A DNA stretch of 64,000 bases from an uncultured virus (IMG/VR IMGVR_UViG_3300003086_000045) (IMGVR_UViG_3300003086_000045:1-64000), one strand, 5' to 3'. Counted from the stretch's first letter, positions 1 through 19,124 are shown. The notes: generated by a model from the sequence alone, not told the origin. Translations and numbers: made by a program.

Positions 1-721
1 TAATGTAGCAGCTGGAGCAGATATAACAGATGCCCTATCTCAGATTAGTAGTTATTGTACTACTCTTGAGAATGAAGCTTTAGCTAGTTGGAAAACTTTA
101 ACTCCTATCAGCTATACCGGAGGTAACTCTGCTACTAATGGAACGGAAGGTAGATTGGCGGGTTGGATGTTTCAAGTTCCTACAGCAGCTTTTGGAGCTA
201 ATAAAGTACGCCTTAGTTTTCCTCCAATCGTGTATGCAGATGGGTGTACAGGTAACCCTGCTTCTTTTGATTATGTAGCTGGAGCAGAGATGGACATCTC
301 TAGTGTAACAACTTGTATTACCAATACAGCTTCCCCCACACTAGACCATCCGGGGTCTACATTTAGCGTGGCACACGCAACCGCTCCTGGAATAATCGAG
401 TACCACTCCAACATAAAAGGTTTTAGAAAGGGTCAGATGAACCCCTCATTCCCTCCAGATGCTAGTATATGGTGTAGTGACGGCAAGTATATTAATGCTA
501 TTGGTATAACTGAAAGAATGAACGTGGAGTCCATGTATGCTAGGTTTGGCTACGCTACCCATTCGCTACTAAACCAAGGGGTCTATTTCTACAACGAGAC
601 AGGGGGGTTCGACTCCTCATGGAAGTATCTACTGATAGCGTTAGGAATAGTAGGCTCTGTAAATGCTCCCCTGTCTGAGATTCCAATAGGTCAAGTAATA
701 ACAGTTGAAGCCTATTATTAA
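1..721 (+). CDS. Virion structural/tail protein, 5'-truncated by the window edge
   Basis: The frame of ORF 155..721 stays open back to base 2 (NVAAGADITDALSQ...). It precedes the fibre genes. Confidence 0.5.
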   Translation, partial: NVAAGADITDALSQISSYCTTLENEALASWKTLTPISYTGGNSATNGTEGRLAGWMFQVPTAAFGANKVRLSFPPIVYADGCTGNPASFDYVAGAEMDISSVTTCITNTASPTLDHPGSTFSVAHATAPGIIEYHSNIKGFRKGQMNPSFPPDASIWCSDGKYINAIGITERMNVESMYARFGYATHSLLNQGVYFYNETGGFDSSWKYLLIALGIVGSVNAPLSEIPIGQVITVEAYY

Positions 722-1185
722 TGTGGAACTGTGAGGGTACAGAAGCTATTAATCCAGTATCAAAGATAATTATCAAACTGAATATGGGTTTAGGATTTGA
801 TGTTTTATCTTATGATAAAAATTTTCCTTTCATTAAAGCAGATGACACACTAGACACATACCTTGCTAAATACGATATTAACAAGTGGGAAATAAGTAAA
901 GAATTAGAGCCGAGACTAGGAGATACAATAATCATTGCTTACAAGAATAGAACAACTGGTCTATTACTTGGTGAAGCTGGCGTAAATGCGGGAACGATTA
1001 TTAATAACAAATTACAAGTACCTTTGATGCGAGGCGGAATGTCTTCATTACAAGGCTTAGTAACAATGGCTGAGATATTACAAGCAGGTTACTGTTTAGA
1101 GTATATAGTTAGAGCGAAAGGATTTGATAGTTTTAAAGCAATTGAATCATCAAGAGAATTAGTCAGGGCACTACGCCCCCAATAA
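721..1185 (+). CDS. Hypothetical protein
   Basis: 154-aa ORF translationally coupled (TAATG) to the upstream gene. Confidence 0.55.
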   Translation: MWNCEGTEAINPVSKIIIKLNMGLGFDVLSYDKNFPFIKADDTLDTYLAKYDINKWEISKELEPRLGDTIIIAYKNRTTGLLLGEAGVNAGTIINNKLQVPLMRGGMSSLQGLVTMAEILQAGYCLEYIVRAKGFDSFKAIESSRELVRALRPQ

Positions 1186-1234
1186 AAATACCTTTAACTA
1201 GGTTAAACAGAATTAATATATAAGGAGATAAACA

Positions 1235-2122
1235 ATGCCGCAAGGATTTCCAAATAACCCAGCTGTAAATGACACAGCTTTATTAAACGGGTCACAATAC
1301 GAATGGGATGGAGTAGCATGGCGCAAAACCGCTGCTTCTACAGCTACAGCTGACTTAACAGACTATGCCACCATCGTATCTTTAGCAACAGAAACTACTC
1401 GCGCAACAGCAGCTGAGGGTGTAAATGCTACAGATATAGCTACTATAACGGCAGCAATGTCAACAGATACGGAGCGTTTAGCTGCCGTAACAGCTTTGAC
1501 TACAGCATATGATGCAGCAGACACAACTTTAGAGGGTTTACTAACGACTGCAATTGCAGGTAAAGTATCTAAGTCTGGTGACACGATGACTGGTAATTTG
1601 GGTATTGGCACTTCGTCGCCAACTTCTGGTTATAAACTTCATATTAAGGGTGATTCAGGTTTACACGCTAAGATGATGGTTGAGTCAACAACCGCTACGG
1701 GTCAAGCAGAGTTATACTTAACTGCTAACTCAGGAGGCGGCTCTCTGATTAATCTTGGTGATGAAAGCTCTTCTACCATAGGGCGTATCGCTTATTATCA
1801 TACTGATAATGCTATGAGATTTGAGACTAATAGCTCAGAACGTATGCGTATCACCTCAGTAGGCAACGTGGGTATCGGGACAACAAGTCCTTCTGAGAGA
1901 CTTCATATCAACTCCGGAACGGGAAATATAGGTGTTAAGATTGAAAGTACTGATGCTACAGCAGTAATCGCTTTCAAGGACAACTCTACCAGTGATGTTA
2001 TCACTATGGGAGCAGAGGGAGATACCGCCGTATTCCATATAAATAACGTACTAGTTATGCGTATCGACTCAGCGGGGAACCTAACTGTCAAGGGAGATAT
2101 AACTGCATTTGGCGCGATATAA
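1235..2122 (+). CDS. Tail fibre protein (cassette A)
   Basis: N-terminal [13 protein letters not shown] anchor, VSKSGDTMTGNL motif, repeated GNVGIGTTSP / ERMRITS fibre repeats, C-terminal GDITAF; AAGGAG RBS. Confidence 0.85.
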   Translation: MPQGFPNNPAVNDTALLNGSQYEWDGVAWRKTAASTATADLTDYATIVSLATETTRATAAEGVNATDIATITAAMSTDTERLAAVTALTTAYDAADTTLEGLLTTAIAGKVSKSGDTMTGNLGIGTSSPTSGYKLHIKGDSGLHAKMMVESTTATGQAELYLTANSGGGSLINLGDESSSTIGRIAYYHTDNAMRFETNSSERMRITSVGNVGIGTTSPSERLHINSGTGNIGVKIESTDATAVIAFKDNSTSDVITMGAEGDTAVFHINNVLVMRIDSAGNLTVKGDITAFGAI

Positions 2123-2132
2123 GGAGTAATTT

Positions 2133-3110
2133 ATGGCAATGCAAAATTCGGGGCCTATTAGGTTCTCAGAAATAAATGTCGAATTAGGTTTCTCTAGTAC
2201 AGCTACATACTCAATGGGTAATAGTAATTCTAGAGGACTATGTGGTATAGCCTCTGGTGCTATGTCTATGAGTAGTTTTTATGGTAAGTCTAACGCTACA
2301 GAAGTAATTATTTCTTCTAATACAAATAACTTTGATATTGGTGCTGCTGTTATTGCAGCTGGCGGAGATAAAAATACTAATTGTAACTTAATTATTAATT
2401 CAGGTGTAACTGTAGGTTCTACATCTAGTGGAACTGCTGCTATGTTTACAGGCACAGGATGGGGTAGTGGAGTAACTATTGATATCGCTAATAATGGTTC
2501 TATAGTTGGCTCTTCTGGTAGTAGTACGGCTAGTCAGGGTGCAGGTGGTAATGGAGGCAAAGGATCTGATGCTAATGTCGGCAACTTCGGCAGCGGTAGT
2601 TCAGGAGCATCAGGCCCAGGTGCCTCTGCTACATCGGCTAATAATGGTGGTAGTGTATTTGAACACTCACAAAATGATTCCAATATGAACGTTACATTTA
2701 GTACAGCAGGAACAAGATCTCCAGGAGCAGGTGGTATTGCAACCGCATTAGGTTCAGGTGGTGGTGGTGGCGGCTCTAATGGTTCAGGTCCATTCGGCGG
2801 TGGTGGCGGTGGTGGCGGAGCAGGCTCACCTGGTGGCTCAGGTGGTGGCGGTGGTGCTGGGCCAAATCCGTTCTACGGTTTTGGAGGCCCAGGCTCAGGT
2901 GGTGGCGGTGGCTCTAGTACTTCTGGAGGAGGAGGCGGTAGCACAATGTTTGACCAAGGCGATGGTGGCGGAGGAGGCTTACCTGGTCAATCTGGTGCAG
3001 CTGGTGTCGGTGGTGGTTCTGGTGGTTCTGGTGGTTCAGCAGGTTCGCCATCTAGTGCATCAGGTTCAGCAGGCTCAGTACTATCAGGCAATACAGCTCA
3101 AATTAGTTAA
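2133..3110 (+). CDS. Glycine-rich fibre-tip adhesin, T-even gp38-like
   Basis: N-terminus MAMQNSGPIRFSEINVELG, then I.N.G.I.G..G and polyglycine runs typical of polyglycine-II adhesins. Confidence 0.75.
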   Translation: MAMQNSGPIRFSEINVELGFSSTATYSMGNSNSRGLCGIASGAMSMSSFYGKSNATEVIISSNTNNFDIGAAVIAAGGDKNTNCNLIINSGVTVGSTSSGTAAMFTGTGWGSGVTIDIANNGSIVGSSGSSTASQGAGGNGGKGSDANVGNFGSGSSGASGPGASATSANNGGSVFEHSQNDSNMNVTFSTAGTRSPGAGGIATALGSGGGGGGSNGSGPFGGGGGGGGAGSPGGSGGGGGAGPNPFYGFGGPGSGGGGGSSTSGGGGGSTMFDQGDGGGGGLPGQSGAAGVGGGSGGSGGSAGSPSSASGSAGSVLSGNTAQIS

Positions 3111-3123
3111 TTAAAGGAATATA

Positions 3124-3591
3124 ATGAATTTACAAGCAAAAATGAAATCAGGGAGCAAATTCTCTGATGAGGATATACTAGAAGTAGTATTTAATTCAGA
3201 TAATATACCTGTAGCAACAGTTGTTCATACTGTTAAGGTAGTATCAGGCCCAGCCGTAACACACGGTGGTGGTGGACTAGCAGGGGACTATTTACATTAC
3301 AAATCGGTAGAAAGAGACGCCGATGCCAATGGTATTATTGATTACTCAGAAGTAGAGATGCGAGTAGTCCAAGAATCACAGGGTACTTCAGTTATTAAAG
3401 TTGTATGTGCTACAATAAGTCAAGCTGATGCAGATGATTTTAATACAGCTATATCTGAGTTCTCGGCTAGAGTAGAAGCTGCTGGTGTAACAGAAGAAAC
3501 TCCAAATGGTACGGATGGTACATTTACGGAGGAAGCACCCACAGCCCCTGATTCAACCATACTAGAAACTGGTGAGATGTCTAATAAGTAA
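3124..3591 (+). CDS. Acidic hypothetical protein, possibly a fibre assembly factor
   Basis: 155-aa ORF with RBS directly after the adhesin. Confidence 0.5.
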   Translation: MNLQAKMKSGSKFSDEDILEVVFNSDNIPVATVVHTVKVVSGPAVTHGGGGLAGDYLHYKSVERDADANGIIDYSEVEMRVVQESQGTSVIKVVCATISQADADDFNTAISEFSARVEAAGVTEETPNGTDGTFTEEAPTAPDSTILETGEMSNK

Positions 3592-3601
3592 CATTTACAA
3601 A

Positions 3602-3624
3602 AGGCCTTCGAAAGAGGGTCTTTG
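3602..3624 (+). terminator. Possible rho-independent terminator
   Basis: GGCCTTC-GAAA-GAGGGTC hairpin followed by a short T run. Confidence 0.45.
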
Positions 3625-3633
3625 ATAAATATT

Positions 3634-4185
3634 ATGTCAGATATAAACGCCTTAAAATTAACAATAGTTACTAATAATGCGAATATTAGTAGTTTACAAA
3701 CTGACGTTGCTAATAAAGCAGAAGTAGACTTAAGTAATGTAGGGACTTTACCAATAAGTATAGCTGATCAGTTACGTGGTCCAGCAGGGTACGGATTTGA
3801 TATTGAAACCGTATTTAATTCTTTAGTAGAATTATTGAATGGATCTGTTACTTCAGGTAGATTCGGTCTAGTCGCGGGCATATTGCCCGAAAGTGACTCA
3901 GACTATGGAAAACTTTATCTTAGGGTAGGTACTTCGTGGCAATATATTACTGATATGTCTGTGGCTGGTGCAGCTGGAGTAGTTGGGCCTCAAGGGCCTC
4001 AAGGGGTAGATGGTAGTACTGGGGCTCAAGGATCTATAGGAAATACAGGGGCTGCGGGAGAAAGTGGTGCAGTATTTTTCAACAATACAGCAGAAGAAGG
4101 TCATTATTACCAAAGTGTTGGAGTTATCTATATGAGAGCGAACGGTACTTGGCGACAGATTTACCCTGCTGTATACTCAGATTAA
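3634..4185 (+). CDS. Short collagen-like fibre/adaptor (cassette B)
   Basis: KAEVDLSNVGTLP motif shared with other cassettes, Gly-X-Y run (GPQGPQGVDGSTGAQG...), C-terminal NGTWRQIYPAVY. Confidence 0.7.
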   Translation: MSDINALKLTIVTNNANISSLQTDVANKAEVDLSNVGTLPISIADQLRGPAGYGFDIETVFNSLVELLNGSVTSGRFGLVAGILPESDSDYGKLYLRVGTSWQYITDMSVAGAAGVVGPQGPQGVDGSTGAQGSIGNTGAAGESGAVFFNNTAEEGHYYQSVGVIYMRANGTWRQIYPAVYSD

Positions 4186-4194
4186 AATAATAAT

Positions 4195-4536
4195 ATGGCA
4201 CAAATTCAAACTACAACTAGTACCCCAAGCGTAAGCTTTACTAAGTCATTTGACCAAGGAGATGTTGCAACTTTGTCAGTAATTAATACTCTTATTGGGT
4301 ATATGGAACAACTTAATGCTCATACACATACTGTAACGGATATAACTTATGAAGCATATGGAATTTCTTCGGGTTCAACTAGCTATACGGCTACAACAGG
4401 AACTCCCTCTACTTCATCTAGTGTGAGTAGTAAGGCTACCGGAGACTTGATTGATGATTCTGAAATAGATCAACTAGTTGCAGCTATCAATGCCTTAGCC
4501 TCACACTATCACGTAATTAACGACCAATCATCATGA
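4195..4536 (+). CDS. Small HxH-motif protein with two internal repeats
   Basis: Two copies of GD-x-(I/V)...L-x2-HxH-x3-D; the same motif occurs in 5353..5553. Confidence 0.6.
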   Translation: MAQIQTTTSTPSVSFTKSFDQGDVATLSVINTLIGYMEQLNAHTHTVTDITYEAYGISSGSTSYTATTGTPSTSSSVSSKATGDLIDDSEIDQLVAAINALASHYHVINDQSS

Positions 4537-5360
4537 AAAAATTTATATTTATTAAAAATTCTTCTAATGTATATGACTCTCAACTAGGAGTTATAGATAC
4601 ATTATCGGAGAAATATGGCCACGAGGAAATAAAAACTTGGGCTAAAATAGACTACTCCCTTCCCGTAAGAATTATAGGTAATAGTGCAACTATAAATTCA
4701 ACAGTATTAGATAGATCTTTTAATATTGATGAAACACTTATATTAGGTTCCTTAGGAAGCTATGACATGGTCATGGTAGCAGCACTAATTTCTAGTGAAG
4801 GCGCTATTTCTGAAGAGACGTTATTTGATAACTTTACACATTATGGTATACAGTCAGATGGGCAAGCAATAAATCTAGCTACAGGTGAAAAAGTTGCAAT
4901 CTCTGGGCATACTTGGTATGTAGTCAGTACTACTTTTAAAGTAGATACTATATTCTATATGGTAATAAATAATAATATTGCTAATATTGTGGAAGTTAAA
5001 CTAGATACTATGATGGAGGGTGTTGGAATACCTCATGAGTATGTCCCAGTATGTACTAAGTGTGGAACATTAAAGCATACTATATTTAAGCCAGTATTCT
5101 CTACAGGTAAAATGATTAATGGTAAAACATTATATGTTAATTCAGATACCCTTACAATAGAACTAACTACTGAAGAACCTATAGATATAACTGTAGAAGT
5201 AGATACTAATATGCAGTTTACTAAGACTGGTTTAACTTATACATTTAACATAGAAAGTACTCACAATTTTATTGAGTTTAGTATCCCTAACCCAGTATTT
5301 GAGTATTTTAGCAAAGAGGAAGAATTATCTTTCCAATATGAGGTAACTAAATATGGCTGA
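4533..5360 (+). CDS. Hypothetical protein with CxxC
   Basis: 275-aa ORF, coupled to both neighbours, contains CTKC. Confidence 0.55.
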   Translation: MKKFIFIKNSSNVYDSQLGVIDTLSEKYGHEEIKTWAKIDYSLPVRIIGNSATINSTVLDRSFNIDETLILGSLGSYDMVMVAALISSEGAISEETLFDNFTHYGIQSDGQAINLATGEKVAISGHTWYVVSTTFKVDTIFYMVINNNIANIVEVKLDTMMEGVGIPHEYVPVCTKCGTLKHTIFKPVFSTGKMINGKTLYVNSDTLTIELTTEEPIDITVEVDTNMQFTKTGLTYTFNIESTHNFIEFSIPNPVFEYFSKEEELSFQYEVTKYG

Positions 5361-5553
5361 TGAGAACACAACGAATAGTGGCGGAGACTCTATAGGAGTA
5401 ACTAGAGATGAAGGAGACATAGTATCTAGCACTGAGATGAAACAAATTATTACAGCAATGAAAACTGTATTAGATCATACACATATTTTTTATGATGACT
5501 ATAGTAGAAATTGTGATTGTAATTGTAACTGCACCAGGGGAACTTGGGGTTAA
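5353..5553 (+). CDS. Cys-rich small protein; putative radical SAM substrate (RiPP-like precursor)
   Basis: 66 aa, HTH motif, then C-terminal NCDCNCNCTRGTWG; GAGG RBS; directly upstream of 4 rSAM genes. Confidence 0.7.
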   Translation: MADENTTNSGGDSIGVTRDEGDIVSSTEMKQIITAMKTVLDHTHIFYDDYSRNCDCNCNCTRGTWG

Positions 5554-5566
5554 TTAGGAGATAGAA

Positions 5567-7093
5567 GTGGCGAGAGAGATACAAGAAATTAGGGCGATTG
5601 GACCCTCAGAGAAATCTATAACTGTAGCAGAAGCGGTAAAGCTGGGGTTATTTAATAAACTAAATAAAATAAATATATTATTAACTAATAAGTGCAACTT
5701 ACGTTGTAATTATTGTTATGAGCAACATAAAAAAGATTTTGGAACAGTAACAGTAGAGAAAGTTAAAAAGGTATTTGACTTCCTTAGATCTATTGGTAAT
5801 ACTGATGTACCAAAAGATATTCAGTTCTTCGGTGGAGAACCCATGTTAAGAAAGGATGTCATATTAGACTTCTTAAAAGAACATGAAGATGAGTTGCGTG
5901 AGCACTCAAGCGAAATTAAAGTTAATATGGTTACTAATGGTACTTTATTAACACAAGAATTTGTAGACGAATATGAAAGTTATGGCTTTACTCTTGTATG
6001 TTTTTCTCTAGACACTCTAGATGAAGATATGGACGAGAGAGGAGTTGATACAGAAGAATTATACGATACAATTGCAAATATGTTTTCAAAAGAATTCAAA
6101 TTGCAAGGTAGACTAGGTATTCGATGTACTATGAATCCAAAAAATGTTTTAGATTTAGATGACTTTGTAGATAGGTTATATGCTGTAGATGTACGAAATA
6201 TGATTGTACACCCACTTACTTATAGTGCTACAGATGGGCTGGTGGAATGGTCTAAGGAAGCATGGGAATCGGTATACGGCGCACTACGAAAGATTTATAA
6301 GAAGTATCCTGACTTTGATATTGAGTTTGCAGAGGGAGTAGGGCACAAAGGTGGCTCCAATTGCATGATAGCATCAGATATGATGGCATTAGATGGATCA
6401 GGGGAATATACAGGGTGCTACTTCTTTACTAATAATAAAGTAGAAGCAGCTAATACTGTATTAGGTAACATATTCGATGATAAAATCTATATTGACAACT
6501 ATAAGTACTGGTTTAAAACTTATGAAGAGTCTTTTAATAACCCAGTATGCCAATCATGTAATATTCAAGGGTTATGTTATTCATGCCCAGCAGGTAATTT
6601 AACAGTATTTGGTGAACCTTACAGTAACTACAAGGCTTGTTCTCAAATTACACAATTTCACGTTGATTTACGTGCTTTCCAGAATGAGGCAGTATTTGAA
6701 GCCTTAGTAGAAAGAGTAGCAGGGGAACTAAATGGCGACACAATTTCCGCTAGACTACTACAATTAGCACATAAATGGACTACTAATCATGTGTGGAAAT
6801 TAGAAGAAATTAGAAAAGGTGATGTACCTTCGTTCAATGAGGGATTATTAGTTTTAGAAGAGGCTGTGACAGGCAAGAGAACTAAATCTCCTGAATCTAT
6901 ACTACATATATACAATGAGTTAAGAAGGCATAAAGATGGTAGATGGCTACCACCTGAGTTAAGTGAAGTAACCCCCGGGTTCAAGGCTCAAGTAGTATAT
7001 GTTGTCTCTGCTTTAGATATGATTATATTTAATAAGGTGTCTAGCGTCAATGAAAATAATACTGATATTGACTATAGTGACTATGTACACTAA
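5567..7093 (+). CDS. Radical SAM/SPASM-domain protein
   Basis: CNLRCNYC, FFGGEP, VTNGTLL and C-terminal CQSC...CYSCPAGN...C cluster. Confidence 0.92.
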   Translation: MAREIQEIRAIGPSEKSITVAEAVKLGLFNKLNKINILLTNKCNLRCNYCYEQHKKDFGTVTVEKVKKVFDFLRSIGNTDVPKDIQFFGGEPMLRKDVILDFLKEHEDELREHSSEIKVNMVTNGTLLTQEFVDEYESYGFTLVCFSLDTLDEDMDERGVDTEELYDTIANMFSKEFKLQGRLGIRCTMNPKNVLDLDDFVDRLYAVDVRNMIVHPLTYSATDGLVEWSKEAWESVYGALRKIYKKYPDFDIEFAEGVGHKGGSNCMIASDMMALDGSGEYTGCYFFTNNKVEAANTVLGNIFDDKIYIDNYKYWFKTYEESFNNPVCQSCNIQGLCYSCPAGNLTVFGEPYSNYKACSQITQFHVDLRAFQNEAVFEALVERVAGELNGDTISARLLQLAHKWTTNHVWKLEEIRKGDVPSFNEGLLVLEEAVTGKRTKSPESILHIYNELRRHKDGRWLPPELSEVTPGFKAQVVYVVSALDMIIFNKVSSVNENNTDIDYSDYVH

Positions 7094-8095
7094 ATGGTCA
7101 GTGATTTAGTAATATATCCCGGTACACAATGTAATTTTAATTGTACATACTGTGATCGGGACTATATTAAAGAGGTACACGGATATCAGAAGCTAACAAC
7201 TGAAGATTTACCCGATATCTTTAACCTTATAGAATCATTAGATTATGATTTTAAAATGCTCTCATTTCATGGTGGGGAGCCTTTTGTATTTACCAAACTT
7301 ATTGATAAAATAATTACTTGGACAGAAGAAAATAAGCCATTCAAGCATTACTACTTCCAAACTAATGGCAGTTTGATACTTAACAACAAAGAATTTATAA
7401 CAAAATGGAAAGATAAGATAATAATTAGTATATCTTATGACTTCAACAAGCAAGAAGATAATAGAACTGGATTTGATATGGAAGAATCCTTGGAGTTCTT
7501 AAAATCGATTGGTGTACCTGCTAAATTACAGTCAGTAGTACCAATGGATGGAAGTTTCTTTGATTCTGATACGATACATAAAATATTAAGATGGAAAGAA
7601 AGAAATCTTGTTTACAGACTTGGATTTGTTCCCTTAAAGTACATACGCTCTGTGGAAGAGTACAAGATTCTACTTGATGATATGTCAGAGGAATATATTA
7701 CAGCTTTCTTTTATAATATAGAATTTCATTTGGATGGGGTAGATGATTTCACAGAGGATTCATTTAAAGATTACTCAGATCCAGTAGAGTTAATTGTGTC
7801 TCCCGATGGATACATGTATTCCGAGTTTGACTTTCTTGATTACCGTCAAGAGCATTTAAGATTTGGAAAATGGAGAGACGGTGTAGAAATATATAAGGAT
7901 GTTCCATTTAAAATGATGGATGAGTGTAAAGAATGTACCGCAAAGAATATATGTGGGCTAAAGTACGCTAGACAAGAATTTGACTTAGGGTTTAAGACTT
8001 TTAACTGCAGAACCTTTTTAACTTTGCAACAAATGACTTTTAAACATATAACTAAGCTAAGAGAGAGGAGTTTGTTAGAACATGTGGGAATTTAA
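7094..8095 (+). CDS. Radical SAM protein with C-terminal Cys cluster
   Basis: CNFNCTYC, FHGGEP, QTNGSL, CKEC...C...C. Confidence 0.88.
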   Translation: MVSDLVIYPGTQCNFNCTYCDRDYIKEVHGYQKLTTEDLPDIFNLIESLDYDFKMLSFHGGEPFVFTKLIDKIITWTEENKPFKHYYFQTNGSLILNNKEFITKWKDKIIISISYDFNKQEDNRTGFDMEESLEFLKSIGVPAKLQSVVPMDGSFFDSDTIHKILRWKERNLVYRLGFVPLKYIRSVEEYKILLDDMSEEYITAFFYNIEFHLDGVDDFTEDSFKDYSDPVELIVSPDGYMYSEFDFLDYRQEHLRFGKWRDGVEIYKDVPFKMMDECKECTAKNICGLKYARQEFDLGFKTFNCRTFLTLQQMTFKHITKLRERSLLEHVGI

Positions 8096-9152
8096 AGAAA
8101 GATTTATGATGCACGATGCCTTGGTAAACATTGGCAACGAGTTAGCATTTACACTACTACATGAGTATAAGTGTAATGCTGGGTGCAAAGACTGTAGAAT
8201 AGTAATTGACGGATGGCCTAAGAAGGCAGACCTCAATAAAATAAAAATACCTACAGACGACATATTCAATGTCGCTTCTTACTTTAATATGCTGTGTTCA
8301 TATGATGACTTAACTTATATCAAGCAGGCTCCTCACTTGTTTGAATGGATGAAAGCACACGAGAAGAAATTCTACAATAGTAGTTTGACGGATCGTGCTA
8401 TATGGCAACAATTTGATATACTAATGAATGAGATTGACTTTATAGGTATAGAAGACCTATCTTTGTTTGATCATTTTATAGTAAATCCTAAATTGGAAAG
8501 AACTCAATTCAAAGGAATGGAGATTCTAGACGTAATAAAGCTTCTTAGAGAAAAGTACACTATTAATCGTATTAAAATTATGATTACAGACGAGAATTTT
8601 GCTTGTGACCCTAAAGTTACAGAAGTATTTGAATATACTCAAGAGCAAGGTATGGAGATGATGTTTATAGGTAATTTTCTAAGACCCGATGACAGTATAT
8701 TCCATAGACTTATAGCCAAGAACTTTCAACATTTTAGTTTTTATGAACACGATCCATCTTTACACTACTTTATTAAAGAGGGTAGAATGTGGAAGACAAA
8801 CGCTTGTGGACTTTATTTACAAAATGATAGAATAGATACAAACGGAGTAGGTACTGGATTTTATGATATAAAAGACTGGGACCCTGTAGAGTTTTTATCT
8901 GTACTAATGCAAAGTAAGAAAGATAATTATACTAAAGAAGCCAGAAGTAAGATACCTTATTTTGTAGATATATCAGAAAGTTTAATAGTAAATCACGATT
9001 TCAATTTTATACCGGGTATTTTACTAGCTCCGTATACTGTGTATGCTAAAAGGCTTATAGAGGAAGAAGGATTTGTAAGAACAGACTATGGATTACTTAA
9101 AAGAGACGGGAAGGTTGTAAAACCACTAATGGAATGGACAGATTTAGACTAA
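8082..9152 (+). CDS. Divergent radical SAM-like protein
   Basis: CNAGCKDC (CX3CX2C) near the N-terminus; no GGEP motif. Confidence 0.6.
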   Translation: MWEFKERFMMHDALVNIGNELAFTLLHEYKCNAGCKDCRIVIDGWPKKADLNKIKIPTDDIFNVASYFNMLCSYDDLTYIKQAPHLFEWMKAHEKKFYNSSLTDRAIWQQFDILMNEIDFIGIEDLSLFDHFIVNPKLERTQFKGMEILDVIKLLREKYTINRIKIMITDENFACDPKVTEVFEYTQEQGMEMMFIGNFLRPDDSIFHRLIAKNFQHFSFYEHDPSLHYFIKEGRMWKTNACGLYLQNDRIDTNGVGTGFYDIKDWDPVEFLSVLMQSKKDNYTKEARSKIPYFVDISESLIVNHDFNFIPGILLAPYTVYAKRLIEEEGFVRTDYGLLKRDGKVVKPLMEWTDLD

Positions 9153-10264
9153 ATACTGAGATTGACTTATACCAAGGTCAGGATGGTACACTATATAATG
9201 CTGATAATGAGCAGTTAACATTTATTCGTGCGTTAGATATTGGTACAACACCTAAGAGCTTTAAGAAGGTACTTAAGCCTAAGAAACTAAAAATTGTTTT
9301 AGGCAATAAATGTAATCTTTCTTGTTCTTATTGTTTACAAGATGCTTTAAGTGAGAGGGATACTTTTGGTAATCAAGTACATACTTTATTAAGCAAATTA
9401 GATTTATCTGTAGTTGAAAAAATAGAATTATGGGGTGGAGAGCCTCTAATGTACTGGCACTATATTAAACAAATTATAGATGAGGTAGATAGAGAAGATA
9501 TTAATTGGTCAATTATTTCAAATGGTTCACTATTAAAAGAGAGACATTTGAAATATTTGGAACAAGTGAAGGGTAGTGTATCAATTACTATCAGTCATGA
9601 CGGTCCCGGACAAGAAGAGCTACGCGGAGAGGACATACTTCCTACTAAGGGAGGGTTACTCAAAGAGTTAGCTACTTTTACAAAGATGAGTTTTAACTCA
9701 ATAGTAACAAATCAAAATTATAATTTATTTGCTATTGAAGATTATTTAGGTTCATATGGATTTTATCATAACTATGAACTTGGAGAAGCCTATGATTACC
9801 ACGGAATTAAATACGTGGTACAAGGAGAAAACTTACAAAAATATGATAAAATATTAAGAGCCTACTTAAAAGAATCTGAGAGACCTAATAGTTTTGGTCA
9901 AGATGTTGAGTCTCAAATACGGTTCTCTATGGATCCTTATAAAGTACCTACCTGGTCAAGGTGTGGTATAGATCAAGAGGAGCAACTGACAGTAGATTTG
10001 GAAGGTAATATAAAACCTTGCCAAAACGTAGGTAAAGAATATATTAGTGGCAGTATAGACGATATTGAAAATGTCAGTCTACAGAACGTCACTTTTGGGG
10101 GAACTAATAGGTGTAAAACTTGTGAAGTCCAAACACTATGTCAAGGAGGGTGTCCTTATAATACTCCAGACATTAATTTATTCAATGTTAATTGTAGTAT
10201 CAACTATGTACATTATAAGGCTATACAAGATACTGCATACAAAACTCTATTCCAGGAGACATAA
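9134..10264 (+). CDS. Radical SAM/SPASM-domain protein
   Basis: CNLSCSYC, WGGEP, SHDGPGQ and SPASM motif CG...PCQ...CKTC...CQGGCP...C. Confidence 0.92.
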   Translation: MDRFRLNTEIDLYQGQDGTLYNADNEQLTFIRALDIGTTPKSFKKVLKPKKLKIVLGNKCNLSCSYCLQDALSERDTFGNQVHTLLSKLDLSVVEKIELWGGEPLMYWHYIKQIIDEVDREDINWSIISNGSLLKERHLKYLEQVKGSVSITISHDGPGQEELRGEDILPTKGGLLKELATFTKMSFNSIVTNQNYNLFAIEDYLGSYGFYHNYELGEAYDYHGIKYVVQGENLQKYDKILRAYLKESERPNSFGQDVESQIRFSMDPYKVPTWSRCGIDQEEQLTVDLEGNIKPCQNVGKEYISGSIDDIENVSLQNVTFGGTNRCKTCEVQTLCQGGCPYNTPDINLFNVNCSINYVHYKAIQDTAYKTLFQET

Positions 10265-10735
10265 ATGGCAACATTAAAAGGAACAAACTTTACAGGAAAT
10301 ATTGGAGAATCTGGTGGTAATTATACCGCTACATTCTATGCTTTCGCAGGAACTGCTTCAAGTGCAAAATATGCGGATTTAGCAGAAAAATATAAAGCTG
10401 ATAAAGAGTATGAAGTAGGCACCGTAGTTATACTTGGTGGTACTGAAGAAATAACGGAGTCACGTTCTCCTAATGATTTTAGAGTAATGGGCGTAGTGTC
10501 AGATAGACCAGCCTATACTATGAACAGTGACTTAGAAGGAGGTACTATAGTAGCTCTAAGAGGAAGAATCAGGTGTAAAGTTATAGGAAAGGTAAGAAAA
10601 GGAGACCTATTGGTTACTTCTTCTATTGCTGGAGTAGCAGAAGCAGATTTAATGGCTAGCGCAACTACATTAGTTGGTAAAGCTATAGAAGAGTATGATG
10701 GAGACGAGGTAGGAACAATAGAAATTTTAGTATAG
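10265..10735 (+). CDS. Stand-alone protein resembling the peptidase G2 / intramolecular-chaperone domain of fibres
   Basis: AKYADLAEKY...GTVV...GVVS..PAY.MN...VALRGR..CKV.G.V.KGDLLV. Confidence 0.7.
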   Translation: MATLKGTNFTGNIGESGGNYTATFYAFAGTASSAKYADLAEKYKADKEYEVGTVVILGGTEEITESRSPNDFRVMGVVSDRPAYTMNSDLEGGTIVALRGRIRCKVIGKVRKGDLLVTSSIAGVAEADLMASATTLVGKAIEEYDGDEVGTIEILV

Positions 10736-10752
10736 GTAGGTAAAAATTTTAC

Positions 10753-10781
10753 TTGACTTTATTATACCTACGTGGTATAAT
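10753..10781 (+). promoter_or_regulatory. Sigma70-type promoter
   Basis: TTGACT-N17-TATAAT with an extended -10 TG, upstream of 10858. Confidence 0.7.
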
Positions 10782-10857
10782 ATATATATTAAAAATTGTT
10801 CCAATGTCAGCCCCGCAGGGTTGATTCTTATTTAATTTAAGTGTTAGGAGATTATCA

Positions 10858-12225
10858 ATGGCAAGAAGACCATTCATCGATGGTGCAGGTGCATCTACGA
10901 CCCCAAATAAGCTAAAAAAGTATAAGTTATCTAAAGAAGGTGGCTTAGTAGAAGTTGTAGGGTTATCTACCCTCTCGAATACAGAAATAGGACTATCAGG
11001 TAATAAATCTGATGTAAGGAATATTGAAGATCTACAACGTAATGATACTGTTTTAGTACGAAATATCAAAGAAGTACAGGATTTATTAACAACCGAATCT
11101 GGTACCCGTAGTACATCTGATACTACACTTCAAAATAATATCGATGCAGAAGAAACTGCACGTATATCTGCAGTTAATACTGTATCTTCTAATTTAACGT
11201 CCGAAGAATCTTCACGTACTATCGCTGATAGTGGGTTAGATGCTCGTGTCTCTACTTTAGAAACTGCCCCTACTTATGCACCATTAGTTAGTTCTGCTAC
11301 AGTACCTCTTAGTCCTAATGCAGGCGATCAGTGGTATAATACAGATACTAATGTTCTATATATTTATTTACATGATGGAGATTCATCACAGTGGATAGAC
11401 ATTAGTACGGATACATTGATGGCAGATTATGTTGCTTCATCAACCTATACTAGTGAGCAGGCTGCTCAAGACACTTTAATTAGTAATACGTTAGCTGCCG
11501 TATCTAGTAATGATACTGATATCACTAGTTTACAGTCTGGCAAAGCCAACGCTGATATGACTAATGTAGGTACTTTACCTGCTAGCGTTGTCGCTCAATT
11601 AAAAGGTGACACAGGAAATACAGGTGCTGCAGGTAGTAATGGTACTAATGGAGCACCTGGTAGTAATGGTAGCGACGGAGCTACCGGAAGTCAAGGAGCA
11701 ACAGGAGCGGATGGACCAGGGTTTTCTTCAGGAACTGCAATGGTGTTTTATCAAGCATCGGCCCCTACAGGATGGACAAAAAGTACGGCACACGACAATA
11801 AAGCTCTGAGAGTTGTTAGTGGCTCAGGCGGCGGTTCAGGTGGTTCATGGCCATTAAGCTCGGGAGATACATCCTCAAGTGGAGGCTCTCACACGCACAG
11901 TACCCCAAGTCACTCTCACTCGCATTCATTAAGTGCAGGATCTCATACATTGAGTACAGCAGAGATGCCTAGTCACGACCACAACTTAAAAAGGCAGAAC
12001 GGTGAATATTATAGTTTTTACGGTGTTCAGCAGTCTAATAAGTGGGATAGCGTAAATTGGGATGGCGGTGTCACGCAAACAACAGGTGGTGGCGGCTCTC
12101 ACTCTCACTCATTATCAGGCTCAATTACTTCAGGTGGTTCAGGTACTTCAGGATCAGCAGGTGCGCATACGCACACAATCTCTGCTCCTCAGTATATTGA
12201 TGTAATTGTTTGCACTAAAGACTAG
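10858..12225 (+). CDS. Tail fibre with collagen segment and HxH metal-binding tip (cassette C)
   Basis: Coiled-coil EE..R repeats, [13 protein letters not shown] motif, Gly-X-Y run, FYQASAPTGWTK collar, many HSH/HTH motifs, HTLSTAEMPSHDH. Confidence 0.85.
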   Translation: MARRPFIDGAGASTTPNKLKKYKLSKEGGLVEVVGLSTLSNTEIGLSGNKSDVRNIEDLQRNDTVLVRNIKEVQDLLTTESGTRSTSDTTLQNNIDAEETARISAVNTVSSNLTSEESSRTIADSGLDARVSTLETAPTYAPLVSSATVPLSPNAGDQWYNTDTNVLYIYLHDGDSSQWIDISTDTLMADYVASSTYTSEQAAQDTLISNTLAAVSSNDTDITSLQSGKANADMTNVGTLPASVVAQLKGDTGNTGAAGSNGTNGAPGSNGSDGATGSQGATGADGPGFSSGTAMVFYQASAPTGWTKSTAHDNKALRVVSGSGGGSGGSWPLSSGDTSSSGGSHTHSTPSHSHSHSLSAGSHTLSTAEMPSHDHNLKRQNGEYYSFYGVQQSNKWDSVNWDGGVTQTTGGGGSHSHSLSGSITSGGSGTSGSAGAHTHTISAPQYIDVIVCTKD

Positions 12226-12524
12226 TGGCACTAGAAGTTGAAATTACCTGCCCTCTTGGTAGTGAATGTGAAACTACTAAAGATAACAAAATACTGAGAT
12301 GTGCTTGGTATACAAAGATTGTTGGGATGGATGCTAATACGGGCAAAGAAGTAGATGAATGGTCTTGTGCTATTGCCTGGATGCCTAGATTACAAATAGA
12401 GATGTCAAGTACCAACAGAGGTCAAACTCAAGCACTAGAAAGTTTTAGGAATGAAACTATTAGAGGACAAGAGGAATTCAATAATCTTGTTAAAAAAAGA
12501 AATAAATTATTAGGAGAACACTGA
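12225..12524 (+). CDS. Cys-containing fibre-associated phage protein
   Basis: CPL..C...CAW...G.D.NTG..VDEW.CAIAW.P.L.IE...ESFRNE; GTG start overlaps the fibre stop. Confidence 0.65.
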   Translation: MALEVEITCPLGSECETTKDNKILRCAWYTKIVGMDANTGKEVDEWSCAIAWMPRLQIEMSSTNRGQTQALESFRNETIRGQEEFNNLVKKRNKLLGEH

Positions 12525-12916
12525 TGGATGTGTGTATTATAAAAGAAGATAGAGTAGTTGCGATTGACGGGGAAGGGATAAATTTTGATTTTGATTTACC
12601 TTCTAACGTATGGGCGATTCAGTGGAACGGCTCAACTGGTGAAATCGAGTTCAATGATGGCACAGCTAACCAAGAAATTAACGACTTTGCAGAGTTTCAA
12701 TATTTAGTTGATGCTCACGCTACCGAGAAGTCTAGACTAGCGGGTGTAGCCACTCAAGAGGCTTTAGATGCTGAAGCTGCCATGACTTACTCAGAAAAGC
12801 GTAAAGCTGAATATGACCAATTAAATCAATTTGAGTTAATCAGTGATGATTCTATCAATGGTACTACAACACATAAAGACGCTATCTTAGCTATCAAAGC
12901 TAAGTTTCCGAAGTAG
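12524..12916 (+). CDS. Tail fibre assembly chaperone-like protein
   Basis: AIQWNGSTGEIE; C-terminal KRKAEY...AIKAKFPK shared with 18751..19062. Confidence 0.65.
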   Translation: MDVCIIKEDRVVAIDGEGINFDFDLPSNVWAIQWNGSTGEIEFNDGTANQEINDFAEFQYLVDAHATEKSRLAGVATQEALDAEAAMTYSEKRKAEYDQLNQFELISDDSINGTTTHKDAILAIKAKFPK

Positions 12917-12947
12917 TACATATATTAATTAAGAAGGAGAATAAACA

Positions 12948-13535
12948 ATGCCTCAAGGATTTCCAAATAGCCCATCAGTAAACAATACAGTTATACTACG
13001 TGGGATGACATACAAATTTAATGGAGTAGCTTGGGATAAAGTTGCCGGAGCTGTTTCAACTGAAATACCATTTGCAACTCAAGTAGACTTAGATTCTGCG
13101 GTTGCTGTTTCAAGTACGCAATCTAATGATATTGCTACGTTGAATACTAATGTAGCTGATATGAATACTGTTATGTCAACAGACACAGAACGATTAAATG
13201 CTGTAGCAGCTTTGACAACTGCATATGATGCAGCTGATGCTACTTTAAACAGTACTTTAACAACAGCAATTGGAACAAAAGCCAATGCTGATATGACTAA
13301 TGTAGGTACCCTACCTTCTAGTGTAGTGACACAATTAAAAGGCGACACTGGAAATACAGGTTCTCAAGGGCCTATAGGAAATACAGGTTCTCAAGGAGCT
13401 ACTGGAAGTACAGGTTCTCAAGGGCCTATAGGAAATACGGGGAGTACGGGAGCTCAAGGAGCTGCAGGAAGTAACGGAGCTACAGGACCGGGCACTTTCT
13501 CTTTATCTGGAACAACCTTAACAATAACTTCTTAA
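12948..13535 (+). CDS. Collagen-like fibre adaptor (cassette D)
   Basis: MPQGFPNSP anchor, MSTDTERL segment shared with 1235, [13 protein letters not shown], Gly-X-Y repeats, ends FSLSGTTLTITS. Confidence 0.8.
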   Translation: MPQGFPNSPSVNNTVILRGMTYKFNGVAWDKVAGAVSTEIPFATQVDLDSAVAVSSTQSNDIATLNTNVADMNTVMSTDTERLNAVAALTTAYDAADATLNSTLTTAIGTKANADMTNVGTLPSSVVTQLKGDTGNTGSQGPIGNTGSQGATGSTGSQGPIGNTGSTGAQGAAGSNGATGPGTFSLSGTTLTITS

Positions 13536-13536
13536 C

Positions 13537-14538
13537 ATGGCTAAGATACATATTAGTGGCGGAGATCACGTTAATGGAGACGGATCCATACGGAATGTAA
13601 CCCATAATGGCTCTACTGTAGAAACTATAGTAGTAGACGGCGTTACTGTATGGAATAAGCCCGTAGATGGAGTTTTTTCTGGCTGGTCAGGCTGGAGTGC
13701 TTGTACTGTAGATTGTGGTGGAGGTACTCAAAACCGCACTAGAAACTGTGGTGGTACAAATCATGGAGGTTACGACTGCTCAGGCTCTACTTCAGAGTCT
13801 CAGGGTTGTAATACTCAAAGTTGTGCTCTATATGTAACAGCGTCAGGGGGGTCTATTTCAACATCAGGTGACTATAGAACACACACCTTTACAGGCTCAG
13901 GCTCATTTAATATTTCTGTAGCAGGCAATGCAGCAGGTTCTAATTCTATTGAATACCTTGTTGTCGGTGGTGGTGGTTACAGACAGCCTGGCAGATATGA
14001 TGCAACAGGAGCAGGTGGAGGTGGAGCAGCTACTTCAGGAACAACAACTAATTTCTCTGCTACATCTTATAATATTACAGTGGGTGGTACAGGTTCAAAC
14101 TCTTCTGCTTTGGGAATAACAGGCAATAAAGGAAATAATGGCATCGGCAGAGATTCTGGAGGATCTTCCGGTAATGGCAATAGCGGTGGCGCTGCCTATG
14201 GTGGTGGTGGAGGCTGTGGCGGGGGCGGTGGTAATAGTTCTACTATGGGCGGTTGTTATGGTTACCCCACAACTAGAGGTGGTAATGGAGGATCAGGTTG
14301 TTCTACTATTTTAGGTACTAAAGGCGGCGGAGGCGGCGGAGGCGGACACAAATGTGGCGCAGGTGGTTCAGGTGGTTCAGGCGGCGGTGGTAATGGTTGT
14401 GCTACAGGATGGAAAGGCGGCTGTGGACCAGGCTCAGGCGCTGTTAACTCAGGTGGTGGTGGCGGTGGCTCTAACGGTTCCTCAACTACTTACAATGGTG
14501 GTTCAGGCGTTGTGGCTCTTAGATATAAATATCAATAG
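13537..14538 (+). CDS. Fibre-tip adhesin with a thrombospondin type-1 repeat and a Gly-rich domain
   Basis: VDGVFSGWSGWSACTVDCGGGTQNRTRNC...CNTQSC, then HTFTGSG, YLVVGGGG, polyGly and GGSGVVALRY. Confidence 0.8.
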   Translation: MAKIHISGGDHVNGDGSIRNVTHNGSTVETIVVDGVTVWNKPVDGVFSGWSGWSACTVDCGGGTQNRTRNCGGTNHGGYDCSGSTSESQGCNTQSCALYVTASGGSISTSGDYRTHTFTGSGSFNISVAGNAAGSNSIEYLVVGGGGYRQPGRYDATGAGGGGAATSGTTTNFSATSYNITVGGTGSNSSALGITGNKGNNGIGRDSGGSSGNGNSGGAAYGGGGGCGGGGGNSSTMGGCYGYPTTRGGNGGSGCSTILGTKGGGGGGGGHKCGAGGSGGSGGGGNGCATGWKGGCGPGSGAVNSGGGGGGSNGSSTTYNGGSGVVALRYKYQ

Positions 14539-14546
14539 GATTAAAT

Positions 14547-14951: not shown

Positions 14952-14969
14952 TATAAAAGGGGATTAAAT

Positions 14970-16694: not shown

Positions 16695-16783
16695 AGATAG
16701 ACGAAAAAGGTATGCCAATAGAAGCATATCAGTGGAACGAAGAATTAATTAATTGGGTATTATTACCCGAACAAGGAGAGTAA
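16691..16783 (+). pseudogene. Relic of a chaperone C-terminus
   Basis: Reads LEIDEKGMPIEAYQWNEELINWVLLPEQGE*, resembling YYDWDESNLSWF of 14547..14951. Confidence 0.4.
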
Positions 16784-16786
16784 ACA

Positions 16787-17500: not shown

Positions 17501-17509
17501 GAGATTATT

Positions 17510-17719: not shown

Positions 17720-17736
17720 TACATATATTAATTAAG

Positions 17737-18738: not shown

Positions 18739-18750
18739 TTAGGAGATAAC

Positions 18751-19062: not shown

Positions 19063-19124
19063 ATAAACTAATGCCTCAATATAGAGGTGCTTAAAATCAA
19101 TTAAGTCGTTAGGAGAAAATAAAA

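What the first reader, a model, noticed from the sequence alone, without database searches (positions are those of the whole stretch)
3634..10264. RiPP-like radical SAM cluster inside the tail-fibre region: CxCxCxC substrate plus four rSAM enzymes
Seen: one tightly coupled operon of a collagen adaptor, a 113-aa HxH protein, a CxxC protein, a 66-aa protein ending NCDCNCNCTRGTWG, and four CX3CX2C proteins, two with clear SPASM clusters. Known: rSAM/SPASM maturases install thioether cross-links on Cys-rich peptides (sacti- and ranthipeptides). Inference: no protease or exporter is in the operon, and the precursor's leader resembles a fibre segment with an HxH motif. The product may therefore be a virion-displayed fibre tip that is cross-linked or metal-loaded after translation, rather than a secreted peptide.
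Basis: partly seen in the sequence, partly recalled or inferred. Interest (0 to 1): 0.92.

Follow-up and report, generated by a model that had tools for sequence, protein, structure and literature searches.

The report
Phage radical-SAM cassette for fibre protein
A hydrothermal-vent phage carries, inside its tail-fibre operon, a tiny protein ending in a cysteine ladder, a related two-repeat partner and four radical-SAM enzymes; the set travels together in dozens of phages, so these viruses probably cross-link a small fibre-associated protein with chemistry otherwise known from peptide antibiotics.

Summary
Window 3622-10735 is one tightly coupled + strand operon. It encodes a collagen-like fibre segment, a 113-aa protein with two HxH motifs, a 275-aa beta-sandwich protein and a 66-aa protein ending in a C-x-C-x-C-x-C ladder. 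Three Pfam radical-SAM enzymes follow (two full SPASM), then a fourth divergent radical-SAM-fold protein and a fibre-chaperone-like domain.

The seven-gene core is conserved. Starting from the enzyme, 56 of 59 phage loci hold the peptide, and the 3 misses are cut contigs. Among 185,579 cellular genomes it turned up once. Ralstonia jumbo phage RP12 has it, with the peptide gene unannotated.

New here:
- The 113-aa protein holds two copies, and the peptide one copy, of a single ~36-residue helix-HxH unit.
- A natural fusion carries all three units plus the ladder in one chain.
- Some ladders contain an intein.

Most likely, ranthipeptide-type enzymes cross-link the ladder of a small protein that pairs with the 113-aa protein as a fibre-associated module. 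The chemistry and the virion location are inferred. RP31 virion proteomics did not detect the cassette. I found no paper describing it.

The parts
3622..4185 (+). 187-aa collagen-like fibre segment whose C-terminus ends ...GTWRQIYPAVYSD. The same C-terminal motif ends the fibre gene directly upstream of the 113-aa-type gene in 12 of 54 distinct loci.
4195..4536 (+). 113-aa protein made of two helix-HxH units joined by a Ser/Thr-rich linker. H43, H45, H104, H106, G56 and D110 are invariant in 21 sequences.
4533..5360 (+). 275-aa protein of the RP12 ORF075 family. No enzyme motif. The C-terminal part (178-275) is an Ig-like beta-sandwich in the model.
5353..5553 (+). 66-aa protein: a variable N-terminus, one helix-HxH unit (DHTHIFYDDY) and a C-x-C-x-C-x-C ladder ending R-G-x-x. 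It is the presumed substrate of the enzymes.
5567..7093 (+). 508-aa radical SAM/SPASM enzyme (CX3CX2C at C43/C47/C50, with seven further conserved Cys).
7094..8095 (+). 333-aa radical SAM enzyme with four conserved C-terminal Cys, enough for one auxiliary cluster (a partial SPASM or Twitch-like region).
8082..9152 (+). 356-aa divergent radical-SAM-fold protein. C31/C35/C38 are invariant. It has no Pfam or NCBIfam hit and no auxiliary-cluster Cys.
9134..10264 (+). 376-aa radical SAM/SPASM enzyme.
10265..10735 (+). 156-aa stand-alone domain. In 31 of 54 distinct loci the same domain forms the C-terminus of a 364-987-aa fibre-like protein. It is weakly like the Peptidase_G2 intramolecular-chaperone domain. 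It is the last gene of the operon.
10753..10825 (+). Promoter-like site (11 of 12 matches, with TG) and terminator-like hairpin that mark the operon's 3' boundary. These are consensus matches only.

Best explanation
This is a phage-specific maturation cassette for a small fibre-associated protein.

Proposed course of events:
- Late in infection the fibre operon makes the 66-aa protein and the 113-aa protein.
- Together they supply three copies of one helix-HxH unit (one plus two). The three copies assemble into a pseudo-threefold module whose six histidines could hold a metal ion, as HxH motifs do in trimeric fibres.
- The Cys ladder that follows the third unit alternates Cys with Asn, Gln, Ala, Asp or Glu. 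It is the substrate of the SPASM-type radical-SAM enzymes.
- These enzymes most likely join Cys sulfur to carbon atoms of neighbouring residues (ranthionine- or sactionine-type thioethers), giving a rigid knot that does not depend on reduction state.
- The module, perhaps with the 275-aa beta-sandwich protein, then caps or decorates a tail fibre.

Shown: gene order and coupling, family membership of the enzymes, co-occurrence, homology of the three units, and the natural fusion.

Inferred: the substrate assignment (about 0.8), association of the two proteins (about 0.75), thioether chemistry (about 0.5) and virion location (about 0.55).
For: (1) Co-occurrence.
- Starting from the enzyme, 59 viral loci have a strong 508-aa-family hit and 56 hold the peptide. 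The 3 without it end at a contig edge.
- Starting from the peptide, all 18 viral loci other than the window's own relative hold the 508-aa homologue. So do 8 of 12 metagenome loci, and the other 4 contigs end near the peptide.
- In 54 distinct loci the tallies are: peptide 51, 113-aa type 50, 275-aa type 49, and the other three enzymes 48, 45 and 44.

(2) Phage-only distribution. One real locus appeared in 185,579 genomes, on a 25-kb MAG contig.

(3) Enzyme kinship.
- The PapB ranthipeptide-maturase family is the best NCBIfam match for all three (E 3.8e-39, 3.1e-11 and 1.6e-19).
- 5WGG is the best PDB match (E 4.7e-15 and 3.1e-11).

(4) Extreme constraint on the peptide core. The H-x-H-x-[FY]-x-D-[DN]-[YF] motif and the ladder are kept in 71 distinct peptides, while the enzymes are only 32-38% identical.

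(5) Residues between the Cys are N 112, Q 61, A 55, E 24, D 14 and 2 others. NxxcB makes a beta-thioether to Asn and tolerates Ala, Gln and Asp (PMC9389541, passages).

(6) Three homologous units, by hhalign: probabilities 97.3, 95.4 and 96.8.

(7) Fusion. P0172 (230 aa) matches the 113-aa profile at residues 17-153 (i-E 3.1e-9) and the peptide profile at 177-230 (i-E 3e-22).

(8) Structural-type fusions.
- The 113-aa family has long forms with a Gly_rich_2 insert between the two HxH motifs, a beta-propeller, an F5/8-C-like domain, or a C-terminal Hint domain.
- P0173 has the unit and ladder at its N-terminus, then a Pro-rich linker and a ~170-aa domain. In that protein the ladder is not a cleaved-off core.

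(9) Fibre context.
- The window genes are translationally coupled to a fibre gene.
- A fibre C-terminal motif or a chaperone-domain fibre lies in 42 of 54 distinct loci.
- Peptidase_S74 fibres flank the cassette in other loci.

(10) Precedent for SPASM enzymes cross-linking proteins rather than peptides: QhpD/QhpC and CrpC/CrpA (PMC13692751, abstract and passages).
Against: - There is no chemical evidence of any modification.
- RP31 virion LC-MS/MS lists 32 proteins and none of ORF68-76 (the cassette and the two fibre-like genes before it), although the flanking ORF62 and ORF78 were found. The method was gel-band based and the 65-aa ORF was not annotated, so this is weak.
- Cys number varies from 3 to 6. 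One six-Cys, intein-bearing variant locus (L088) shows only one fused two-domain enzyme and no 356-aa or 376-aa type in the 14 kb held. So 'one enzyme per link' does not hold.
- No RiPP recognition element was detected in any enzyme.
- Tailoring-type genes are frequent neighbours, which also fits a natural-product pathway. DUF3050 diiron protein is in 27 of 54 loci. An Asp/Asn hydroxylase, an aminotransferase and B12 radical-SAM enzymes occur in some loci.
- The six-histidine metal site and the trimer-like packing are not modelled.
Confidence: 0.5

Rival explanations
1. The product is a free RiPP-like peptide or a peptide-derived cofactor or chelator. It would act inside the infected cell or be released at lysis. 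It is encoded in the fibre region only because that region collects accessory genes.
For: - The enzymes are of the peptide-maturase type.
- Tailoring enzymes lie nearby: DUF3050 in 27 of 54 loci, plus a hydroxylase, an aminotransferase, B12 radical-SAM enzymes and a carbamoyltransferase in some loci.
- The cassette was not found in RP31 virions.
- An invariant core is typical of cofactor precursors such as PqqA and MftA (recalled).
Against: - No protease or exporter is present in the window or among 62 flanking proteins.
- The peptide unit is homologous to, and once fused with, the 113-aa protein.
- The ladder is followed by a large domain in P0173.
- The 113-aa family carries display-type inserts.
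- The window genes are coupled to fibre genes.
Confidence: 0.2
2. The Cys ladder and the HxH motifs bind metal, as a metallothionein-like or Fe-S site would, and are not an enzyme substrate. The radical-SAM enzymes would act on another target: the 113-aa protein, a fibre protein or a small molecule.
For: - C-x-C runs and HxH are classic metal ligands (established knowledge).
- Cys number varies from 3 to 6 among the peptides.
- CrpA is suspected to bind metals (PMC13692751, Discussion passage).
Against: - Enzyme and ladder co-occur in 56 of 59 loci.
- The residues between the Cys are restricted to N, Q, A, E and D. That matches known thioether acceptors better than it matches metal ligands.
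- The closest enzymes use Cys as the cross-link donor.
Confidence: 0.15
3. The small proteins are assembly factors (chaperone or scaffold) for the neighbouring fibres. They are modified, but they are not kept in the finished particle.
For: - They were absent from the RP31 virion list.
- They neighbour a stand-alone intramolecular-chaperone-like domain.
- Fibre chaperones are commonly encoded right after fibre genes (established knowledge).
Against: - Four dedicated enzymes and near-invariance of the core are a high cost for a transient helper.
- Long forms carry binding-type domains (P0173).
Confidence: 0.1

Closest known systems
PapB/PapA and CteB/CteA ranthipeptide systems (NCBIfam NF047865; PDB 5WGG/5WHY, which I recall as CteB)
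   Same: A radical SAM enzyme with a SPASM domain is encoded next to a small Cys-rich substrate. These are the best sequence matches for the window's enzymes.
   Different: - Scores are far below the family cut-off (134.8 against 340).
- Four paralogous enzymes are present instead of one.
- No recognition element, protease or exporter was found.
- The substrate has a C-x-C ladder, not CX3D-type motifs.
- The system is phage-only and lies in fibre operons.
NxxcB/NxxcA (streptococcal RaS-RiPP; PMC9389541, passages read)
   Same: It forms a beta-thioether from Cys to an Asn three residues upstream, and the enzyme tolerates Ala, Gln and Asp. The ladder here is a run of overlapping N/Q/A/D/E-x-x-C motifs.
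   Different: No specific sequence kinship was tested. NxxcA is a short quorum-regulated bacterial peptide with a single link.
QhpD/QhpC and CrpC/CrpA (SPASM enzymes that cross-link a protein; PMC13692751, abstract and passages read)
   Same: Thioethers are installed on a protein that stays part of a larger assembly or remains full-size, not on an exported peptide.
   Different: - TIGR03906 scores 73.7 against 453, and TIGR04463 scores 58.1 against 525.
- Those systems are cellular and use one enzyme with a recognition element.
- They have no HxH units.
His-Xaa-Ser system HxsABCD (TIGR03977-03979)
   Same: Paired radical-SAM maturases sit next to a His-repeat target, and both are uncharacterised.
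   Different: HxsB scores 68.9 against 370, and HxsC scores 30.9 against 267.9. The target here has H-x-H within a helix unit plus a Cys ladder, not His-Xaa-Ser repeats.
HxH metal sites of trimeric phage fibres (T4 gp37 tip, gp12 collar; recalled, not checked in any call)
   Same: Three HxH motifs could give six histidines around a metal ion on a fibre axis.
   Different: Here the three motifs come from two different chains (two plus one), or from one fused chain, not from a homotrimer. No structure or model supports it yet.

Membership tests
Radical SAM superfamily (PF04055) | CX3CX2C cluster motif and a hit above the Pfam gathering score | tested here: met
   The 508-, 333- and 376-aa proteins score 77.1, 42.2 and 39.8 bits against a cut-off of 29.5. 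The motif is invariant in the family alignments.
Radical SAM superfamily (356-aa protein) | Sequence-model hit, partial TIM-barrel fold and CX3CX2C | tested here: inconclusive
   - It has no Pfam or NCBIfam hit and no PDB profile hit.
- Its three Cys are invariant in 18 of 18 homologues.
- The model has pLDDT 79.
- The 13 best VIA-align rows are all radical-SAM enzymes (Z 9.0-6.9, 206-249 residues aligned, rmsd 4.5-6.7).
- Foldseek's best hit is MoaA at E 0.015.
SPASM domain (TIGR04085) | Seven-Cys pattern for two auxiliary clusters after the core | tested here: met
   - The 376-aa protein scores 37.9 bits against a cut-off of 27.
- The 508-aa protein has C266, C284, C328, C331, C337, C340 and C358 invariant in 18 sequences.
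- The 333-aa protein keeps only four Cys and the 356-aa protein none, so this holds for two of the four.
PapB-family ranthipeptide maturase (NF047865) | Score at or above the curated cut-off (340 bits) | tested here: not met
   The three enzymes score 134.8, 43.1 and 70.3 bits. PapB is the best-matching family, but these are not members.
Ranthipeptide/sactipeptide product | Cys sulfur linked to a carbon of another residue | not testable with these tools
   This needs mass spectrometry or NMR of the co-expressed product.
RiPP in the strict sense | Leader peptide removed by a protease, and the mature peptide released or exported | tested here: not met
   - No peptidase or transporter family appears in the window operon or in 62 flanking proteins of 11 loci.
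- Natural forms have the ladder fused to larger domains.
His-Xaa-Ser system (HxsB/HxsC) | Scores above the cut-offs of 370 and 267.9, with a His-Xaa-Ser repeat target | tested here: not met
   The scores are 68.9 and 30.9 bits. The weak HxsA4 hit of the 455-aa fibre (27.2 against 55) lies on its Gly-X-Y region.
Virion structural protein (tail-fibre component) | Detected in purified particles | tested here: not met
   The RP31 virion LC-MS/MS table lists 32 proteins and none of ORF68-76. The test is weak, because the method was band-based and the small ORF was not annotated. Gene context does favour a fibre role.

The most novel reading that the evidence does not exclude
Phages build a hetero-oligomeric fibre cap in which three copies of one helix-HxH unit, split over two genes, clamp a metal ion. 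A cysteine ladder, stapled by up to four radical-SAM enzymes, locks the cap. This would be the first radical-SAM post-translational modification of a virion protein, and a new fibre-tip architecture that takes its stability from RiPP chemistry rather than from a homotrimeric fold.
Probability: 0.35. Interest if true: 0.92.

Novelty: new variant of a known kind. Interest (0 to 1): 0.8.

Why it matters
Radical-SAM thioether chemistry is known from exported peptides and from two cellular proteins. Using it on a phage's own adsorption apparatus would link two fields, RiPP enzymology and phage structural biology. It would also explain why many large phages carry clusters of radical-SAM genes that are usually filed as 'auxiliary metabolic' or 'antibiotic synthesis' genes.

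The system is compact: seven genes and a 66-residue substrate. It occurs in a cultured phage, so it can be tested directly by co-expression and mass spectrometry.

The near-invariant ladder, the four specialised paralogous enzymes and the split three-unit module also offer new enzyme and substrate pairs for cross-linking peptides.

Tried and rejected
- Megablast of 3600-10300 against 50,697 phage records found no match.
- Complex prediction on the 113-aa and 66-aa proteins gave no verdict (score 0.04 against a mark of 0.32), so it counts neither way.
- The ESM Atlas look-ups returned only unnamed viral clusters. One weak lead (0.79) pointed to a CXXX-repeat radical-SAM target family, and I did not follow it.
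- The HxsA4 hit of the 455-aa fibre is compositional. His/Ser-rich fibres of that kind occur only in the window among all loci held.
- Three loci were spurious. L037 is an RHS-like protein that merely contains HDHIFYDDY. L025 and L026 are short Cys-run matches without the cassette.
- I looked for the loci of the long forms P0172, P0173 and P0170 in viral contigs. None appeared for P0172, and only ordinary peptide loci for the other two. The neighbours of the fusion are therefore unknown.
- The fold of the 275-aa protein gave only a generic Ig-like match (Z 8.0 or less) and its RP12 homologue.
- The PDB profile search for the 356-aa family found nothing meaningful.
- Contigs from an RNA library (X20) touch 5529-5726, 8415-8750, 10303-10531 and 10867-11487. 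They are short, and DNA carry-over cannot be excluded, so I make no claim of transcription.
- Earlier-notes look-ups by place and by sequence returned nothing.
- Six literature searches found no description of the cassette. The library lacks most subscription journals.


Full report
**Observation.** Nine co-oriented ORFs run from 3622 to 10735 on the + strand. Their junctions range from a 19-nt overlap to a 13-nt gap. A promoter-like site and a terminator-like hairpin at 10753-10825 follow the last gene. Shine-Dalgarno-like GAGG and AGGAG sites precede the starts at 5353 and 5567.

Pfam finds collagen repeats in the 187-aa protein. It finds Radical_SAM in the 508-, 333- and 376-aa proteins. 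It finds nothing in the 113-, 275-, 66- and 356-aa proteins. NCBIfam ranks the PapB ranthipeptide-maturase family first for all three enzymes, far below its cut-off. PHROGs places the three enzymes in phrog_1802 and the 356-aa protein in phrog_36229, which has no known function.

The rest of the window holds phage replication and nucleotide-metabolism genes. The record is a 77.9-kb viral contig.

**The cassette is a conserved, phage-only unit.** tblastn against 50,697 phage records finds the 508-aa enzyme (38% identity, E 9e-88) and the 66-aa protein (E 9e-9) only in Ralstonia jumbo phages RP12 and RP31. In RP12 the order is:
- two fibre-like genes
- ORF074 (125 aa, two HxH motifs)
- an unannotated 65-aa ORF ending ...NCNCNCACTRGSL
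- ORF075
- three annotated radical-SAM genes around a hypothetical ORF078
- a DUF3050 gene

A profile of 19 peptide homologues retrieved loci from three collections:

| Collection | Loci found | Comment |
|---|---|---|
| Viral contigs | 19 | |
| Metagenome contigs | 13 | one spurious |
| 185,579 cellular genomes | 1 real | |

Every peptide locus with enough flanking DNA has the four enzyme genes in the same order.

The reverse scan started from a profile of the 508-aa family. It gave 59 loci with strong hits, and 56 of them hold the peptide. The three exceptions stop at a contig end. More distant radical-SAM genes in the same scan (50-80 bits) lack the peptide.

Collapsed to 54 distinct loci, the tallies are:

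| Component | Loci of 54 |
|---|---|
| Peptide | 51 |
| 113-aa type | 50 |
| 275-aa type | 49 |
| 333-aa type | 48 |
| 356-aa type | 45 |
| 376-aa type | 44 |
| Chaperone-like domain of the 156-aa protein | 31 |
| DUF3050 | 27 |
| Fibre with the ...W[RK]Q[VI][YFW]PAVY C-terminus | 12 |

The 275-aa family is recognisable only by iteration (E 5e-46) and by fold (RP12 homologue, Foldseek E 9.5e-17).

**The small proteins.** In 71 distinct peptides the core reads H-x-H-x-[FY]-x-D-[DN]-[YF]-x3-C-x-C-x-C...R-G-x-x at the C-terminus. Cys counts are 5 in 51 peptides, 6 in 9, 3 in 6 and 4 in 5. The residues between the Cys are N 112, Q 61, A 55, E 24, D 14 and 2 others.

The 113-aa family has H43, H45, G56, H104, H106 and D110 invariant in 21 sequences. 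It counts 285 clusters at E 0.001 or better among 1.84 billion representatives.

An iterated search from the 113-aa protein pulls in all the peptides. hhalign shows that the two halves of the 113-aa protein and the peptide are three versions of one ~36-residue unit. The probabilities are 97.3, 95.4 and 96.8, and the E-values run from 2.7e-11 to 1.9e-8 for single comparisons. The unit is an amphipathic helix followed by H-x-H-x-hydrophobic-x-D.

A natural 230-aa protein (P0172) joins the two-unit protein (residues 17-153) to the peptide (177-230, with the ladder) in one chain. This fusion is the strongest evidence here that the two gene products work as one three-unit module.

Other long forms point to a displayed, structural role:
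- Gly_rich_2 inserts between the two HxH motifs, a beta-propeller, an F5/8-C-like domain and C-terminal Hint domains.
- P0173, in which the unit and ladder form the N-terminus of a 256-aa protein with a Pro-rich linker and a further domain.

Two homologues have an intein inside the ladder.

**The enzymes.** The 508- and 376-aa proteins have the CX3CX2C motif and seven conserved downstream Cys. Their best solved relative is 5WGG, at E 4.7e-15 and 3.1e-11. That entry's title concerns thioether formation in sactipeptides, and I recall it as CteB. The 333-aa protein keeps four downstream Cys.

The 356-aa protein matches no sequence model, but several lines suggest a radical-SAM fold:
- C31, C35 and C38 are invariant.
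- The model has pLDDT 79.
- Its 13 best VIA-align matches are all radical-SAM enzymes, at Z 9.0-6.9. Foldseek is weak, with MoaA at E 0.015. The tool warns that Z near 8 can be a common arrangement, so I rate this as probable, not shown.

Each locus has one member of each of the four enzyme types. They are therefore old, specialised paralogues.

**Other parts.** The 275-aa protein is a beta-rich protein with an Ig-like C-terminal domain. The model has pLDDT 71, and the PDB matches are generic Ig-like domains at Z 8.0 or less. Its CxxC is not conserved.

The 156-aa protein is a stand-alone copy of a domain that elsewhere ends 364-987-aa fibre-like proteins. It is weakly like the Peptidase_G2 intramolecular chaperone domain (E 0.0014, under the cut-off).

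Neighbours in related loci include Peptidase_S74 fibres, DUF4815 giants and RCC1/CBM5_12 proteins. They also include tailoring-type enzymes such as DUF3050, an Asp/Asn hydroxylase, an aminotransferase and B12 radical-SAM enzymes.

**Mechanism.** I commit to the following.
- The ladder is the substrate of the enzymes. The basis is co-occurrence and enzyme kinship.
- The links are most likely thioethers from Cys to carbon atoms of neighbouring residues. The ladder is a run of overlapping acceptor-x-x-Cys motifs. Its acceptor set matches what NxxcB uses or tolerates, namely Asn, Ala, Gln and Asp (PMC9389541, passages).
- The modified protein pairs with the two-unit protein into a three-unit, six-histidine module. 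This rests on the fusion and the unit homology. The metal site is an analogy with HxH sites of T4 fibres, which I recall and did not check.
- The module belongs to a fibre. This rests on operon coupling and fibre neighbours in 42 of 54 loci. It is the weakest step.

**Evidence against the virion location.** The RP31 virion LC-MS/MS table (PMC5468394, Table S3 read whole) lists 32 proteins and none of ORF68-76, although ORF62 and ORF78 nearby are listed. The 65-aa ORF was not in their annotation (Table S2B, part 1 read). The paper's text only names the three radical-SAM genes and MgoB among 'other genes'.

**What is known.** SPASM enzymes that cross-link proteins rather than exported peptides have precedents in QhpD/QhpC and CrpC/CrpA (PMC13692751, abstract and passages). 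That paper does not mention phages (0 occurrences).

Six full-text searches found no paper on a phage radical-SAM and Cys-ladder fibre system. One cyanophage paper files a single radical-SAM maturase under 'antibiotic synthesis' (PMC12801897, passages). Subscription journals are mostly outside the library, so absence from print is not proven.

Earlier AI notes of this scan describe comparable 'Cys-tailed fibre plus radical-SAM' cassettes in other phage genomes. They gave me the CrpC and NxxcB leads. They are not independent evidence.

**Verdict.** I file the cassette as a new variant of a known kind: RiPP-type radical-SAM maturation applied to a phage's own small fibre-associated protein. The three-unit split module, the natural fusion and the intein are new details. 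Interest is 0.8.

Noticed in passing
L088:9793-10416 (- strand) and protein P0171: Two homologues of the 66-aa protein carry a ~140-residue mini-intein inside the Cys ladder. Splicing would restore the ladder. Fourteen of 15 weak PDB hits are DnaE inteins (E 0.016-0.33).
   Followed up: partly
L002:5185-5495 compared with window 4195-4536: A near-identical sister contig has a 24-nt in-frame insertion and a 55-nt deletion in the 113-aa gene. The deletion splits the gene into two ORFs of one HxH unit each, with an overlapping stop and start. DNA runs X5 and X18 show the insertion but not the deletion.
   Followed up: partly
related loci, directly after the 376-aa-type gene; absent from window 1-20000: A DUF3050 (heme-oxygenase-like diiron, MgoB-like) gene accompanies the cassette in 27 of 54 distinct loci, including RP12 ORF080.
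   Followed up: partly
window 21585-25042: There is a second tailoring-like cluster. It holds an Asp/Asn beta-hydroxylase-like ORF (21.1 bits, just under the cut-off), a fifth radical-SAM enzyme (68.2 bits) and a tryptophan-halogenase family protein (303.9 bits).
   Followed up: no
window 13537-14538: A phage protein has a thrombospondin type-1 domain (39 bits against a cut-off of 21.6) followed by a Gly-rich region. It lies among collagen-like fibre genes.
   Followed up: no
window 10858-12225: A 455-aa collagen-like fibre has four S/G-H-x-H-S/T motifs in its C-terminal third. No other locus held here has such a protein.
   Followed up: partly
L100 (543-kb viral contig): A variant system has five radical-SAM genes, a 288-aa two-HxH protein with an F5/8-type-C-like N-terminal domain (26.5 bits, under the cut-off) and a 127-aa HxH protein with a longer, irregular Cys-rich tail.
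   Followed up: partly
L001:12889-13086 (Ralstonia phage RP12, NC_041911.1): The 65-aa homologue of the Cys-ladder protein is not annotated in the RefSeq record. It lies between ORF074 and ORF075.
   Followed up: yes
whole window: The record is a 77.9-kb viral contig, estimated to be 62% complete. Near-identical DNA is held by runs labelled hydrothermal vent metagenome, and the 20 holding rows come from 13 studies dated 2014-2025.
   Followed up: no
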